Assembly (NCBI RefSeq): GCF_055900595.2
Contig: NZ_CM148325.1
DNA: 64,000 nucleotides
Direction: 5' to 3' (one strand)
Shown: piece by piece, positions 1,694-56,703 of the stretch
Numbering within the stretch: position 1 is the first letter of the stretch
Layout of the letters: each line of letters starts with the position of its first letter
Notes under the pieces: generated by a model
Told to the model about the DNA's origin: nothing
The model's input: only the letters and a program-made list of their open reading frames with translations
Databases searched by the model: none
Translations under genes and position numbers: made by a program

Positions 1694-3355
1694 TTACGCC
1701 GCAAGCAGTTCTTTCGCATTCGCCAGTGTGTTACGTGTGACTTCACTGCCACCAAGCAGGCGCGCCAGCTCTTGTAACCGCGCTTTTTTGTCCAGCGACT
1801 CCATATGCGTTTCTGTCATCGCACCATCGGTTTCTTTGCTGACAAAATAGTGTTGATGACCACATCCCGCGACTTGTGGCAGGTGGGTAACACACATCAC
1901 CTGAGTTGATTCGCCGAGTTGACGCAGCAGTTTGCCGACAACTGCCGCTGTTGGACCGCTAATCCCTACATCCACTTCATCAAAAATCAGTGCCGGGGTT
2001 TCCATTTTACGCGCTGTGATGACCTGAATTGCCAATGCGATGCGGGACAATTCACCACCAGATGCGACTTTGGCAATAGGCTGCATTGGCTGACCTGGGT
2101 TGGTGGTTACCCGAAACTCAATACGATCAGCGCCGTCAGCGCCCAGGTGATGCTCGTCAAATTTAACATCAATCGTAAACTGCCCATGCGGCATAGAGAG
2201 TGCATGCATACTGTCGGTGATCAGCTGTGCCAACTCATTTGCATAATGCTGGCGTTGCTGGTGTAACGCGCGCGCCGTTTCCAGTGCCTGCTGATGATGT
2301 TTCGTTACCGCCAGCGCGAGCGTTTCTTGTGAGTCGGCCTGATCGTCCAGTTGCTGCTGCTCTTCCAGTAGCGACTGGTAATACTGTGGCAATACCTCAG
2401 GGCTGACGTGATGTTTACGTGCCAGCGAAATCTGTTTTGAGATGCGCTGTTCAAGTTCAAACAGTCGGTTGGGATCGAGATCCAGACGATCGCAGTAGTG
2501 GCGCAGTTCGTCGCTGGCTTCAACAATCTGGATGGTAGCTTCTTCCAGCATATCAAGTACGCCGGACAGTTTGCTGTCCATGCCAATCAATTCGCTCACC
2601 AGTTGTTTAGCCGTGTAAAGCTGGCTTTGCAGGTTTGCGTCTTCGCCGTCGGCCATTAATGCCAATGCATTCTGGCTGGTGGTCAGTAATTGACCGCTGT
2701 TCGCCAGACGTTTGTACTCTTCGTCGATTTGCTCAAACTCTCCGGGCTGCGGATTAAATTCGTTAAGTTCTTTTAATTGGTATTGCAGCAGCTCCGCACG
2801 AGCGGCGCGTTCCTGACTTAACTGTTGATGATGAGCGAGGTCGCGGCAGCTTTGATGCCACAACTGATAACGTGCGGTCATTTCCTGAAGCAGAGAGGTT
2901 TCATTAGCATAGCCATCAAGCAGGAATTTTTGGTGCTCGGGTTTGGTGAGTAATTGATGGGCGTGCTGACCATGGATCTGAATGAGCAACTGGCCCAGTT
3001 CGCGCAGTTGTGACAGTGGAACAGCTGTACCGTTGATAAAACCACGAGAGCGACCATCGCTACTGATTACGCGACGAAGCAGGCATTCACGGCCATCTTC
3101 CAGTTGGTTTTCTTCCAGCCAGCGCAGTGCTGCGGGTGTATCTTTCAGAGAAAAACGGGCGCACAGATCTGCGCGAGCAGCTCCGGTACGCACCATGTCG
3201 GCTTCAGCGCGACCGCCGAGACAAAGGCCCAGGGCATCTATTGCAATAGATTTACCCGCGCCAGTCTCGCCGGTGATTACGGTCATGCCGCTGTGAAAAT
3301 CAATCTCAAGCTCACGAACGATAGCAAAGTTGCTGATGGTCAGTTGTGCCAACAT
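1694..3355 (-). CDS. recN: DNA repair protein RecN (SMC-like ATPase)
   Basis: 553-aa ORF, Walker A GETGAGKS at N-terminus, RecN sequence. Confidence 0.95.
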
Positions 3356-13315: not shown

Positions 13316-13681
13316 TTAATTTAATCGTATTGTGCTGGCATTCTCATCAGCCCCTTTTTGCCATACTTCATGCAGTTGGCTGGCATTTTCAACATTGTTG
13401 CAGCTGGCAGGAAAGCTTTTACCGGAAAGTCCTCGGGCATAAGTAAAATCGGTCTGGCAAGTTTTCTTTTGTCCTTCGGCATATCCTTTAAGGTATAGAC
13501 CGCGATCCGCCTGTGAATCGCTAAATGCATCGTCATCTTTTATGGCGTTGCCCGATATCGCATCTTCCATACCAACATCATACCAGTCGGTGCTGGTCAA
13601 GGTTGGCGCGTGAGTATAAGGATCAATCTGACATCCGCTAACCAGTAAAGCCAACAAGGGGGCGATAAACTTTTTCATCAT
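13316..13681 (-). CDS. yfiL: Lipoprotein YfiL
   Basis: MMKKFIAPLLALLVSGC lipobox; start taken at the MM pair (121 aa); ORF track extends to 13720. Confidence 0.8.
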   Translation of the reverse strand: MMKKFIAPLLALLVSGCQIDPYTHAPTLTSTDWYDVGMEDAISGNAIKDDDAFSDSQADRGLYLKGYAEGQKKTCQTDFTYARGLSGKSFPASCNNVENASQLHEVWQKGADENASTIRLN

Positions 13682-13726
13682 TTCTTTCTCCTTTTTCAAA
13701 GCATAGCGGATTGTTTTCAAAGGAGG

Positions 13727-13796
13727 TGTAAATTTATTTATACATAAACAAGGGTTAAAAGCGCGAATAAATTGCCTGTGTAAAGAAAAATGTACG
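13727..13796 (+). promoter_or_regulatory. TyrR boxes in the aroF promoter
   Basis: TGTAAATTTATTTATACA (13727-13744) and TGTAAAGAAAAATGTACG (13779-13796) fit TGTAAA-N6-TTTACA. Confidence 0.7.
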
Positions 13797-13890
13797 ATAT
13801 ATGGATTGAAAACTTTACTTTATGTGTTATCGTTACGTCATCCTCGCTGAGGATCAACTATCGCAAACGAGCATAAACAGGATCGCCATC

Positions 13891-14961
13891 ATGCAAAAAG
13901 ACGCGCTGAATAACGTACATATTACCGACGAACAAGTTTTAATGACTCCGGAACAACTGAAGGCCGCTTTTCCATTAAGCCTGCAACAGGAAGCCCAGAT
14001 TGCTGACTCGCGTAAAACCATTTCAGATATTATCGCCGGGCGGGATCCTCGTCTGTTGGTAGTATGTGGTCCTTGTTCCATTCATGATCCGGAAACTGCT
14101 CTGGAATATGCTCGTCGATTTAAAGCCCTTGCCGCAGAGGTCAGCGATAGCCTCTATCTGGTAATGCGCGTCTATTTTGAAAAACCCCGTACCACTGTCG
14201 GCTGGAAAGGGTTAATTAACGATCCCCATATGGATGGCTCTTTTGATGTAGAAGCCGGGCTGCAGATCGCGCGTAAATTGCTGCTTGAGCTGGTGAATAT
14301 GGGACTGCCACTGGCGACGGAAGCGTTAGATCCAAATAGCCCGCAATACCTGGGCGATCTGTTTAGCTGGTCAGCAATTGGTGCTCGTACAACGGAATCG
14401 CAAACACACCGTGAAATGGCCTCCGGGCTTTCCATGCCGGTTGGTTTTAAAAACGGCACCGACGGCAGCCTTGCAACGGCTATTAACGCTATGCGCGCCG
14501 CCGCCCAGCCGCACCGTTTTGTTGGCATTAACCAGGCAGGGCAGGTTGCGTTGCTACAAACTCAGGGGAATCCGGACGGGCATGTGATCCTGCGCGGTGG
14601 TAAAGCGCCAAACTATAGCCCTGCGGATGTTGCGCAATGTGAAAAAGAGATGGAACAGGCGGGACTGCGCCCGTCTCTGATGGTAGATTGCAGCCACGGT
14701 AATTCCAATAAAGATTATCGCCGTCAGCCTGCGGTGGCAGAATCCGTGGTTGCTCAAATCAAAGATGGCAATCGCTCAATTATTGGTCTGATGATCGAAA
14801 GTAATATCCACGAGGGCAATCAGTCTTCCGAGCAACCGCGCAGTGAAATGAAATACGGTGTATCCGTAACCGATGCCTGCATTAGTTGGGAAATGACCGA
14901 TGCCTTGCTGCGTGAAATTCATCAGGATCTGAACGGGCAGCTGACGGCTCGCGTGGCTTAA
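13891..14961 (+). CDS. aroF: DAHP synthase, Tyr-sensitive (AroF)
   Basis: [30 protein letters not shown]... 356 aa. Confidence 0.95.
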
Positions 14962-14971
14962 GAGGTTTATT

Positions 14972-16093
14972 ATGGTTGCTGAATTGACCGCATTACGCGA
15001 TCAAATTGATGAAGTCGATAAAGCGCTACTGAATTTATTAGCGAAGCGTCTGGAACTGGTTGCTGAAGTTGGCGAGGTGAAAAGCCGCTTTGGACTGCCT
15101 ATTTATGTTCCGGAGCGCGAGGCATCTATGCTGGCCTCGCGGCGTGCAGAGGCGGAAGCTCTGGGTGTACCGCCAGATCTGATTGAGGATGTTTTGCGTC
15201 GGGTGATGCGTGAATCTTACTCCAGTGAAAACGACAAAGGATTTAAAACGCTTTGTCCGTCTCTGCGTCCGGTGGTTATCGTCGGTGGTGGCGGTCAGAT
15301 GGGACGTCTGTTCGAGAAGATGCTGACGCTCTCGGGTTATCAGGTGCGGATTCTGGAGCAACATGACTGGGATCGAGCGGCTGATATTGTTGCCGATGCC
15401 GGAATGGTGATTGTTAGTGTGCCCATTCACGTTACTGAACAAGTTATTGGCAAATTACCGCCTTTACCGAAAGATTGTATTCTGGTCGATCTGGCATCGG
15501 TGAAAAATGGACCATTACAGGCCATGCTGGCGGCGCATGATGGTCCGGTGCTGGGGTTACACCCGATGTTCGGCCCGGACAGCGGTAGCCTGGCAAAGCA
15601 AGTTGTGGTCTGGTGTGATGGACGTAAGCCGGAAGCATACCAATGGTTTCTGGAGCAAATTCAGGTCTGGGGCGCTCGGCTGCATCGTATTAGCGCTGTC
15701 GAGCACGATCAGAATATGGCGTTTATTCAGGCACTGCGCCACTTTGCTACTTTTGCTTATGGGCTGCACCTGGCAGAAGAAAATGTTCAGCTTGAGCAAC
15801 TTCTGGCGCTTTCTTCGCCGATTTACCGCCTTGAGCTGGCGATGGTTGGGCGACTGTTTGCCCAGGATCCGCAACTGTATGCCGACATTATTATGTCGTC
15901 AGAGCGTAATCTGGCGTTAATCAAACGTTACTATAAGCGTTTCGGCGAGGCGATTGAGTTGCTGGAGCAGGGCGATAAGCAGGCGTTTATTGACAGTTTC
16001 CGCAAGGTGGAGCACTGGTTCGGCGATTACGCACAGCGTTTTCAGAGTGAAAGCCGCGTGTTATTGCGTCAGGCGAATGACAGTCGCCAGTAA
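14972..16093 (+). CDS. tyrA: Bifunctional chorismate mutase / prephenate dehydrogenase (T-protein)
   Basis: 373 aa TyrA sequence, 10 nt after aroF stop. Confidence 0.95.
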
Positions 16094-16135: not shown

Positions 16136-17296
16136 TTATGCCGGATCGACTGGTACCACATTCTCGCTTGGGTAACAGCCCAGGACTTTCATCGAGCGAG
16201 TGATTTCACCTAGCTCTTTCAACGCCTGTTGCATTTCCGCTGATTCCAGATTGGCCTGAATATCCAGATAAAACATCTCTTCCCACGGGTTTCCGTGAAT
16301 CGGGCGTGATTCCAGACGGGTCATAATCAGACTGTGATTGCGCAGTACCAGCAACGCTTCAACCAGTGCACCAGCATGTTGTCCGGTCGCCATTAACAAC
16401 GTCGTTTTCGCCGGAACCTGGTCAGAAACGTTAATGGCTTTACGTGCCAACACCACAAATCGGGTGAAGTTTTGTCGCTGATTCGCTTCAATACGCTCCA
16501 GTACCTGCAAACCGTACAAAGTGCCGCCAGCTTCGCTTCCCAACGCAGCAACATGCGGTGATTTTGCCTGTGCAACCTTTTCCATTGCCGCAGACGTACT
16601 TTCGGTATATTCAATCTTCCAGTGCGGATAACGATTAAGGAATTTGCTGCATTGCTGGAATGGCTGCGGATGGCTGTAGACCGTATTGATGGCGGATAAA
16701 TCAGTAGTGCCGGAGACCAACAAACAATGATCGATAGTTAACGTCATCTCGCCAACAATCGACAAACTGGTATGTTGCAGCAGATCGTAAACGTCGTTTA
16801 TGGCACCGGAGCTGGTATTTTCAATCGGTACGACGGCATAGTCGGCCTGGCCGGTTTCCACCTGATTAAAAATATCGGCAAATTTGGCGCAGCCACTTTC
16901 AATGAATTGCTCAAAGTGACGCGCAGCGTACTGACGAGCGGCAAGATGTGAATAGGAGCCTTTGGGGCCGAGAAAAGCGATGCGTGCTGAGTGCGGATTA
17001 ATTTGATTGAGATGTTGCTGGAGCAGTGCCTGCTGAGTTAATACGGAATCTTCAATGATGAGCTGGAACAGGCGAGTAATGTAATGGGCGTCCAGATGGT
17101 GCGCTTTACCGAGCGTAATTAATCTTTCCAGCAAATCGCGTTCGCGATCAATATCACGTACCGGGCGATGAGAGAGCAGTTTGGCTTTTCCCACCTCGAC
17201 GGCCAGTTCGCGCCGCTCTGCCAGTAATGCTAATAATTTTTCATCCAGCGCGCTGATTTTCTCTCGCAGCGCCAGTAACGGGTTTTCCGATGTCAT
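16136..17296 (-). CDS. pheA: Bifunctional chorismate mutase / prephenate dehydratase (P-protein)
   Basis: [22 protein letters not shown]... 386 aa. Confidence 0.95.
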
Positions 17297-17318
17297 AGTG
17301 TTGCCTTTTTGTTATCAA

Positions 17319-17349
17319 TAAAAAAGGCCCCCCGGTTTGGGAGGCCTTA
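17319..17349 (-). terminator. pheA attenuator terminator
   Basis: Minus-strand RNA AAGGCCTCCCAAACCGGGGGGCCTTTTTT between pheL and pheA. Confidence 0.8.
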
Positions 17350-17394
17350 TTGTTCGTCTTCGCATTCTGTTTCACACGACGAAACGCCTCCCAT

Positions 17395-17442
17395 TCAGGG
17401 GAAGGTAAAAAAGAATGCGAAGAAAAACGGTGTGTGTTTCAT
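17395..17442 (-). CDS. pheL: pheA leader peptide PheL (15 aa, Phe-rich)
   Basis: Minus-strand ATG at 17442 encodes [15 protein letters not shown]; not in ORF track because it is under 60 aa. Confidence 0.85.
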   Translation of the reverse strand: [15 protein letters not shown]

Positions 17443-17497
17443 GTTTGTTTCCTTAAGTGACTTCAGTACAGTACCCGTACTGTTTTCACGCTGTCAA

Positions 17498-56510: not shown

Positions 56511-56703
56511 CACCAGGAAACGTACTTAAGGCGCGTCAGGTTAACCAGCCAGGCGCGCCTTTAATAATTATAAATAAATGTCTGGGCAGATATTATATAA
56601 ATTCATTTGGTGAATAATTATGCTAATGTCATCAATTAAATAAATATAATGGCGTTAAGGCTTTCCTGTAAAATATTTAATACTCTACTTCCAGAGCAAA
56701 ATA

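What the first reader, a model, noticed from the sequence alone, without database searches (positions are those of the whole stretch)
13727..13830. TyrR boxes upstream of the aroF-tyrA operon
Two good matches to TGTAAA-N6-TTTACA (13727-13744, 13779-13796) and a weaker candidate near 13812-13829 lie within ~160 bp upstream of aroF, consistent with TyrR repression of this operon.
Basis: partly seen in the sequence, partly recalled or inferred. Interest (0 to 1): 0.2.

Follow-up and report, generated by a model that had tools for sequence, protein, structure and literature searches.

The report
Known TyrR operator of aroF-tyrA

Summary
The window is E. coli. Positions 13682-13890 are the yfiL<->aroF intergenic region, co-linear with K-12 MG1655.

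both are confirmed exactly. 13727-13744 is TGTAAATTTATTTATACA (11/12) and 13779-13796 is TGTAAAGAAAAATGTACG (10/12). Both keep the essential G-N14-C.
13812-13829 is wrong (no G-N14-C; PWM rank 9048). The real third box is 13802-13819, TGGATTGAAAACTTTACT (8/12, G-N14-C kept). It overlaps the -35 hexamer TTGAAA.
- **K-12 comparison:** all 36 half-site bases equal K-12.
- **Chance:** two boxes of at least 10/12 occur in 1e-4 of shuffles of the intergenic DNA.
- **PWM scan:** a PWM built from non-Escherichia aroF promoters ranks the three boxes 1, 2 and 4 of 63,979 window positions.
- **Conservation:** the three-box layout (-164/-112/-89 from the ATG) is kept in all 18 Enterobacteriaceae sequences compared, while spacers and inter-box DNA diverge. 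Within E. coli, half-sites vary at 2/36 positions against 25/64 elsewhere.

Best explanation: tyrosine- and ATP-dependent TyrR hexamer binding to two strong boxes plus the weak box over -35, which excludes RNA polymerase. Already known; interest is low.

The parts
13727..13744 (.). TyrR box 3 (upstream strong box), TGTAAATTTATTTATACA, 11/12, G-N14-C present. Centre is 52 bp from the box 2 centre and about -104.5 from the inferred TSS.
   Evidence: PWM rank 1 of 63,979. Half-sites identical to K-12, with only one spacer base different. Conserved in 18/18 Enterobacteriaceae sequences.
13779..13796 (.). TyrR box 2 (strong box just upstream of the -35), TGTAAAGAAAAATGTACG, 10/12, G-N14-C present. 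Centre about -52.5 from the inferred TSS.
   Evidence: PWM rank 2. The left arm TGTAA is invariant and TAC of the right arm nearly so in 18 Enterobacteriaceae sequences.
13802..13819 (.). TyrR box 1 (weak box), TGGATTGAAAACTTTACT, 8/12, G-N14-C present. It is 23 bp centre-to-centre from box 2 and overlaps the -35 hexamer.
   Evidence: PWM rank 4. GGATTG...CTTTAC is almost invariant in 18 Enterobacteriaceae sequences, including the right arm, which lies in the promoter spacer where RNA polymerase imposes little constraint. Invariant in 9 diverse E. coli plus E. albertii.
13806..13833 (+). Predicted sigma-70 promoter of aroF: -35 TTGAAA (13806-13811), 16-bp spacer, TG at 13825-13826, -10 TATCGT (13828-13833). 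Inferred transcription start near 13840.
   Evidence: It is the only promoter-like site found on either strand in 13600-13950. TTGAAA and TGnTATnGT are conserved in the Enterobacteriaceae alignment. The TSS is inferred, not measured.
13891..14961 (+). aroF (Tyr-sensitive DAHP synthase), first gene of the regulated operon.
   Evidence: ORF listing. RefSeq annotation of the near-identical strain and of K-12.
14972..16093 (+). tyrA (chorismate mutase/prephenate dehydrogenase), second gene, 10 nt after aroF.

Best explanation
The region is the TyrR operator of the aroF-tyrA promoter, in the same three-box form as in E. coli K-12.

Layout:
- Two strong boxes: box 3 at 13727-13744 and box 2 at 13779-13796.
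- One weak box: box 1 at 13802-13819, covering the -35 hexamer.

Mechanism (from the literature on K-12, inferred for this sequence):
1. TyrR dimers occupy the strong boxes.
2. When tyrosine and ATP are bound, TyrR becomes a hexamer. The hexamer also fills the adjacent weak box 1 and contacts box 3, which lies five helical turns upstream.
3. Occupancy of box 1 keeps RNA polymerase off the -35 region, so aroF-tyrA is repressed when tyrosine is plentiful.

Shown here: the sites, their quality, their geometry, their position over the predicted promoter, and their evolutionary conservation. Not shown here: TyrR binding, tyrosine dependence and the transcription start.
For: - **Identity with the characterised locus:** gap-free alignment to K-12 MG1655, with all 36 half-site bases identical. 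The flanking genes are annotated yfiL, aroF, tyrA.
- **Site quality:** the boxes score 11/12, 10/12 and 8/12, each with G-N14-C. By the published rule (>=10/12 strong, fewer weak; G-N14-C essential; a weak box needs an adjacent strong box; PMC4374768) this gives strong, strong, weak.
- **Not chance:** probabilities of 1e-4 and 5e-5 in shuffles of the intergenic DNA, and 0.0075 for two sites within 100 bp in window shuffles.
- **PWM scan:** a PWM built from 97 boxes of non-Escherichia aroF promoters ranks the boxes 1, 2 and 4 in the window.
- **Geometry:** box 2 to box 1 is 23 bp in every Enterobacteriaceae sequence. Box 3 to box 2 is 51-53 bp in most, 61-62 bp in three genera and 107-108 bp in Erwinia/Pantoea. 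These are about 5, 6 and 10 helical turns, as expected if the boxes must lie on one face for a bridging oligomer.
- **Box 1 overlaps the only predicted promoter**.
- **Phylogenetic footprint:** half-sites are conserved while spacers and inter-box DNA diverge across 18 Enterobacteriaceae sequences. Within E. coli, 2/36 half-site positions vary against 25/64 other positions (Fisher p = 3e-4).
- **Box 3 follows aroF:** it is kept in the 10 sequences where yfiL is not the upstream neighbour.
- **Regulator present in the species:** tyrR is found in 5415 of 5426 complete E. coli genomes.
- **Literature:** Tyr-mediated repression of aroF-tyrA by hexameric TyrR that blocks RNA polymerase (PMC10170061). 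aroFtyrA is among the most conserved TyrR regulon members (PMC5343134). aroF is up 39.5-fold in a Y. pestis tyrR mutant (PMC4325908).
Against: - Nothing in the data contradicts it; the gaps are about what could be tested.
- No binding or expression data exist for this strain.
- The transcription start is inferred from a consensus promoter.
- The primary operator papers (Cobbett & Delbridge 1987; Cobbett 1988; Andrews et al. 1991; Pittard et al. 2005) are not in the held library. The statement that these exact K-12 nucleotides are boxes 1-3 therefore rests on my recollection plus the comparative evidence.
- This window carries a minority allele of the inter-box DNA: only 11 of 5421 genomes are >=99% identical over 13700-13860. 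It also has two spacer substitutions relative to K-12, whose effect on affinity is untested.
Confidence: 0.95

Rival explanations
1. The matches are chance AT-rich palindromes in an AT-rich intergenic region, or promoter/UP-element sequence with no repressor function.
For: - The intergenic DNA is 35% G+C.
- The window-wide count of consensus-like sites is no higher than chance: 20 against 24.7 at <=3 mismatches, and 3 against 2.4 at >=10/12.
- Box 1 contains the -35 hexamer, so part of its conservation is due to the promoter.
Against: - Shuffles that preserve the composition of the intergenic region give two strong boxes at 1e-4, and a strong box with an adjacent partner at 5e-5.
- Half-sites, but not spacers or flanks, are conserved across 18 Enterobacteriaceae sequences and within E. 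coli.
- The right arm of box 1 lies in the promoter spacer and is still invariant.
- The sequence equals the K-12 operator.
Confidence: 0.01
2. The conserved repeats are the operator of a different regulator, for example TrpR, which is predicted to control aroF-tyrA in Shewanella.
For: - A comparative study predicts aroFtyrA under TrpR in Shewanellaceae (PMC5343134).
- The Shewanella aroF upstream regions sampled here have no TyrR boxes.
Against: - There is no CTAG core, and the best match to the TrpR operator GTACTAGTTAACTAGTAC is only 10/18 in 13682-13890.
- The repeats fit TGTAAA-N6-TTTACA with G-N14-C.
- E. coli aroF-tyrA is described as TyrR-repressed.
Confidence: 0.01
3. Box 3, which lies 46 bp upstream of the divergent yfiL start codon (13681), also or mainly regulates yfiL rather than only assisting aroF repression.
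For: - Box 3 lies closer to yfiL than to aroF: it is 46 bp from the yfiL ATG.
- 13682-13722 is almost invariant in E. coli, so a yfiL promoter or leader must lie at or beyond box 3.
- TyrR controls divergent genes from shared boxes in Enterobacter cloacae akr-ipdC (PMC4374768).
Against: - Box 3 keeps its position relative to box 2 and aroF in the 10 Enterobacteriaceae sequences that lack yfiL within 350 bp upstream.
- No convincing minus-strand promoter was found near it.
- yfiL is not named among TyrR regulon members in the papers read.
Confidence: 0.06

Closest known systems
aroF-tyrA operator (TyrR boxes 1-3) of Escherichia coli K-12
   Same: - Same locus, with a gap-free alignment.
- All 36 half-site bases are identical, as are the -35 and -10 hexamers, the 5' UTR and the start codon.
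- Same spacing: 23 bp and 52 bp centre to centre.
   Different: - One base differs in the N6 spacer of box 3 (13738, T here and C in K-12).
- One base differs in the spacer of box 2 (13785, G here and T in K-12).
- There are 9 further substitutions flanking the boxes: 13723, 13724, 13745, 13747-13749, 13757, 13767 and 13798.
- The allele is rare within E. coli.
tyrP and mtr operators of E. coli (adjacent strong + weak TyrR box pair)
   Same: A strong box with an adjacent weak box whose occupancy depends on the strong one; tyrosine-dependent oligomerisation (PMC4374768; PMC9609185, for mtr).
   Different: - Those promoters have two boxes and can also be activated by TyrR.
- aroF has a third strong box five turns upstream and is only repressed. 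The statement about tyrP and mtr behaviour comes from the cited papers and my own knowledge; it was not tested here.
tpl promoter of Erwinia herbicola / Citrobacter freundii (three TyrR boxes bridged by a TyrR hexamer)
   Same: Three dispersed TyrR boxes that are proposed to be joined by one Tyr-induced hexamer through DNA looping (PMC10170061).
   Different: - The outcome there is activation.
- The boxes are about eleven turns apart, with CRP-induced bending between them.
- Here the boxes are 2 and 5 turns apart, and the proximal one occludes the -35.

Membership tests
TyrR box (TyrR operator site) | 18-bp palindrome matching TGTAAA-N6-TTTACA: >=10/12 is strong, fewer is weak (PMC4374768) | tested here: met
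   Scores are 11/12 (13727), 10/12 (13779) and 8/12 (13802). The PWM built from non-Escherichia sites ranks them 1, 2 and 4 in the window.
TyrR box (TyrR operator site) | Invariant G and C 14 bp apart (positions 2 and 17), essential for binding | tested here: met
Present in all three boxes: G13728/C13743, G13780/C13795 and G13803/C13818.
TyrR box (TyrR operator site) | A weak box lies next to a strong box | tested here: met
   Box 1 starts 6 bp after box 2 ends (5-bp gap) and is 23 bp centre to centre from it. The same 22-23 bp spacing is seen in nearly all Enterobacterales sampled.
TyrR box (TyrR operator site) | For repression, a box overlaps the core promoter | tested here: inconclusive
   Box 1 overlaps the -35 of the only predicted sigma-70 promoter, and that promoter is conserved. 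However, the transcription start was not measured here.
   The three-box layout is present in 18/18 Enterobacteriaceae sequences. Box pairs occur in other Enterobacterales and in Vibrionaceae. None occur in Shewanella, as published.
TyrR box (TyrR operator site) | The cognate regulator gene tyrR is present in the same genome | tested here: inconclusive
   tyrR is not in the window. It is present in 5415 of 5426 complete E. coli genomes. The genome that the window comes from could not be examined as such.
TyrR box (TyrR operator site) | Physical binding of TyrR and tyrosine/ATP-dependent repression | not testable with these tools
   This needs a footprint or EMSA, plus reporter assays.
aroF-tyrA operator of E. 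coli K-12 | Orthologous position (yfiL<->aroF intergenic region) and sequence identity of the boxes | tested here: met

The most novel reading that the evidence does not exclude
In Escherichia and the relatives that have yfiL as neighbour, the TyrR hexamer that loops box 3 to boxes 2 and 1 also shuts or modulates the divergent yfiL promoter. The whole 209-bp intergenic region lies inside or next to that loop. This would couple tyrosine status to the yfiL-yfiR-dgcN-yfiB (c-di-GMP) gene cluster.
Probability: 0.06. Interest if true: 0.4.

Novelty: already known. Interest (0 to 1): 0.07.

Why it matters
It matters little beyond correct annotation. The TyrR operator of aroF-tyrA is a classical, mutationally dissected regulatory region. 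It is routinely removed or replaced in strains engineered for tyrosine and phenylalanine production.

The useful outputs here are:
- The corrected coordinates of the weak box (13802-13819, over the -35).
- Evidence that this rare E. coli allele keeps every half-site base.
- A cross-genus picture showing that the distance from box 3 to box 2 changes only by about whole helical turns, which fits the published hexamer/looping model.

Tried and rejected
Neither has G-N14-C; they rank 9048 and 13 in the PWM scan, against rank 4 for 13802-13819.
- **A possible fourth box in the 5' UTR**, CGCAAACGAGCATAAACA at 13862-13879 (8/12, G-N14-C): rejected. It ranks 844 in the PWM scan, lacks T1 and T3, and its right arm is not conserved in register in other genera. 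Vibrionaceae do have a strong box about 29 nt before the ATG, but that is a different promoter layout.
- **Window-wide enrichment of the consensus**: none found. The significance comes from site quality, clustering, position and conservation.
- **Other good matches in the window**: 2614-2631 lies inside recN, and 56667-56684 lies in the yfhL/shoB/yfhH region. Both are judged to be chance.
- **TrpR operator**: no match.
- **Rfam scan of 13500-14100**: nothing found.
- **Literature**: the primary aroF operator papers and the 2005 TyrR regulon review are not in the held library. Searching the box sequences as text gave only an irrelevant hit. Searches for descriptions of the aroF promoter and its boxes gave general statements only.
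- **Minus-strand promoter for yfiL near box 3**: no convincing candidate.
- **Locus files**: the files from the search for related loci were not visible to run_python. The sequences were exported through DNA alignment instead.

Full report
**What is there.** The window is Escherichia coli. A 1-kb piece around the finding matches 5425 of 5426 complete E. coli genomes, and the match is annotated yfiL | aroF. In a strain that is 99.9% identical over this piece, the annotated order is yfiB, dgcN, yfiR, yfiL (all minus strand), aroF, tyrA (plus), then pheA, pheL (minus). In window coordinates:
- yfiL is 13316-13681 (-).
- aroF is 13891-14961 (+).
- tyrA is 14972-16093 (+).

The intergenic region is therefore 13682-13890 (209 bp). 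It aligns without gaps to K-12 MG1655, the strain in which the aroF operator was worked out.

**Check of the observation.** The two 'good matches' are exactly as stated:
- 13727-13744 is TGTAAATTTATTTATACA (11/12).
- 13779-13796 is TGTAAAGAAAAATGTACG (10/12).

By the published rule these are strong, strong and weak. That rule says:
- At least 10 of 12 matches makes a strong box, and fewer makes a weak box.
- G-N14-C is essential.
- A weak box needs an adjacent strong box (PMC4374768).

**More than chance?**
- A bare consensus count over 64 kb is not enriched. At <=3 mismatches there are 20 hits against 24.7 expected. At >=10/12 there are 3 hits against 2.4 +/- 1.6 expected.
- The signal lies in clustering and context. 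Two >=10/12 sites within 100 bp occur in 0.75% of window shuffles.
- In 20,000 dinucleotide shuffles of the AT-rich (35% G+C) intergenic DNA, two such boxes occur at 1e-4. A strong box with a second box 22-23 bp away occurs at 5e-5.
- I built a position weight matrix from 97 boxes upstream of aroF in genera other than Escherichia. It ranks the three boxes 1st, 2nd and 4th among 63,979 positions of the window.
- As a positive control, the only <=2-mismatch site in 5 kb around K-12 tyrR lies 71-88 bp upstream of the tyrR start codon.

**Relation to the promoter.** The only sigma-70-like promoter predicted on either strand of 13600-13950 is TTGAAA (13806-13811), a 16-bp spacer, then TG and TATCGT (13828-13833). 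Box 1 covers the -35 hexamer and most of the spacer, and box 2 ends 10 bp upstream of the -35. Taking 13840 as an inferred start, the box centres lie near -29.5, -52.5 and -104.5. Centre-to-centre distances are 23 bp (box 2 to box 1) and 52 bp (box 3 to box 2, about five helical turns).

**Comparative evidence.** One scan of GTDB species genomes with AroF returned 80 loci, ranging from E. albertii to Halomonas. Their upstream regions were exported and scanned.
- **Enterobacteriaceae.** All 18 sequences (the window, K-12 and 16 other species) have three boxes at about -164, -112 and -89 from the ATG.
- **Footprint pattern.** A MAFFT alignment shows the typical pattern. The half-sites GTGTAA...TTTAC, TGTAAAG...T(T/G)TACG and TGGATTGAAA(A/T)CTTTAC are conserved, while spacers and inter-box DNA are scrambled. 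The right arm of box 1 sits in the promoter spacer, where RNA polymerase demands little, yet it is invariant.
- **Spacing.** Box 2 to box 1 is always 23 bp in Enterobacteriaceae. Box 3 to box 2 is 51-53 bp in most, 61-62 bp in three genera and 107-108 bp in Erwinia/Pantoea. These are roughly 5, 6 and 10 helical turns.
- **More distant groups.** Yersinia, Serratia, Pectobacterium, Hafnia and Budvicia keep a box pair 22-23 bp apart. Vibrionaceae have a pair near -137/-114 and a strong box near -29. Shewanella has none, in line with the published prediction that aroFtyrA is under TrpR there (PMC5343134).
- **Link to aroF rather than yfiL.** yfiL is the upstream neighbour in only 8 of the 18 Enterobacteriaceae sequences, yet box 3 is present in all 18. 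Box 3 therefore goes with aroF.

**Variation inside E. coli.** Over 13700-13860, only 11 of 5421 genomes are >=99% identical to the window, and most are 90-95% identical. In nine diverse E. coli plus E. albertii, the differences pile up just upstream of box 3, between boxes 3 and 2, and in the N6 spacers. Within E. coli, 2 of 36 half-site positions vary against 25 of 64 other positions in 13720-13819 (Fisher p = 3e-4). One of the half-site variants (strain QA-1986 630) still leaves a 10/12 box with G-N14-C. Relative to K-12, the window differs at one spacer base in box 3 (13738) and one in box 2 (13785), and at no half-site base.

**Mechanism.** The literature held here states two things:
- Tyr-mediated repression of aroF-tyrA works through a Tyr/ATP-induced TyrR hexamer that blocks access of RNA polymerase (PMC10170061).
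- Weak boxes are filled only with help from an adjacent strong box (PMC4374768).

Applied to this anatomy, dimers sit on strong boxes 3 and 2. With tyrosine the hexamer also occupies weak box 1 over the -35 and bridges to box 3 on the same helical face, and transcription of aroF-tyrA stops.

The primary papers exist as citations in held papers but could not be read:
- Cobbett & Delbridge 1987
- Cobbett 1988
- Andrews et al. 1991
- Pittard et al. 2005

My recollection is that they define these very K-12 sequences as boxes 1-3. That is recollection, supported here by the comparative data. TyrR binding, tyrosine dependence and the transcription start are not shown by anything I could run. tyrR itself is not in the window, but it is present in 5415 of 5426 complete E. 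coli genomes. In Yersinia pestis, deleting tyrR raises aroF 39.5-fold (PMC4325908).

**Rivals.**
- **Chance or pure promoter sequence.** This is excluded by the shuffles and by the conservation pattern.
- **A different regulator such as TrpR.** This finds no operator-like sequence: there is no CTAG, and the best match is 10/18.
- **A second role of box 3 in controlling the divergent yfiL.** This is not excluded but has no positive support. I keep it as the 'novel reading', at about 6%.

**Verdict.** Novelty: already known. Interest: low.

Noticed in passing
window 13840-13854: Small hairpin ATCCTC-gct-GAGGAT at the inferred 5' end of the aroF mRNA. The stem (T)CCTC/GAGG(A) is kept in the 18 Enterobacteriaceae sequences, while the loop varies in sequence and length (3-4 nt). 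Two lineages carry a compensated C->T/G->A pair (TCTC/GAGA and TTCTC/GAGAA). It could be a 5'-terminal stabilising stem-loop. There is no Rfam match.
   Followed up: partly
window 13858-13871: The 14-nt block CTATCGCAAACGAG in the aroF 5' UTR is almost invariant across 18 Enterobacteriaceae sequences, although the flanking UTR diverges. Its function is unknown. A GcvB study lists a very strong in-silico GcvB-aroF pairing (-28.27 kcal/mol) but no regulation in its reporter (PMC11878033).
   Followed up: partly
window 13722-13725 and 13745-13778: The DNA just upstream of box 3, and between boxes 3 and 2, is a polymorphism hot spot within E. coli. The window carries a rare allele: 11 of 5421 genomes are >=99% identical over 13700-13860. 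It equals E. albertii at 13738-13752 and nearly so to 13757, which suggests an old polymorphism or recombination.
   Followed up: partly
L088 (E. coli ESDR8), aligned just upstream of window 13722: This strain has a 7-base expansion of a G run immediately upstream of box 3. The boxes themselves are intact.
   Followed up: no
window 2614-2631: TGTAAAGCTGGCTTTGCA matches the TyrR consensus 11/12 with G-N14-C, but it lies inside the recN coding sequence (553-aa ORF, 1694-3355, minus strand). It is probably a chance match.
   Followed up: partly
window 56667-56684: TGTAAAATATTTAATACT (9/12, G-N14-C) ranks third in the PWM scan. It lies in the AT-rich yfhL / shoB (type I toxin) / yfhH region. It is probably chance; conservation was not examined.
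   Followed up: no
loci L034-L052 (Vibrionaceae), about 26-33 nt upstream of aroF ATG: Vibrio, Photobacterium, Salinivibrio and Aliivibrio aroF genes have a strong TyrR box (10-11/12) about 29 nt before the start codon, in addition to an upstream pair. This is a different operator layout from Enterobacteriaceae.
   Followed up: no
loci L017, L018, L058 (Erwinia/Pantoea) and L014-L016: The distance from the upstream strong box to box 2 comes in discrete classes (51-53, 61-62, 107-108 bp), close to whole numbers of helical turns. This is consistent with a face-of-helix constraint.
   Followed up: partly
window 17296-17450 (pheA leader): The convergent pheA gene (16136-17296, minus strand) is preceded by the pheL leader peptide and attenuator. 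This is annotated in the near-identical strain and is an ordinary known feature.
   Followed up: no
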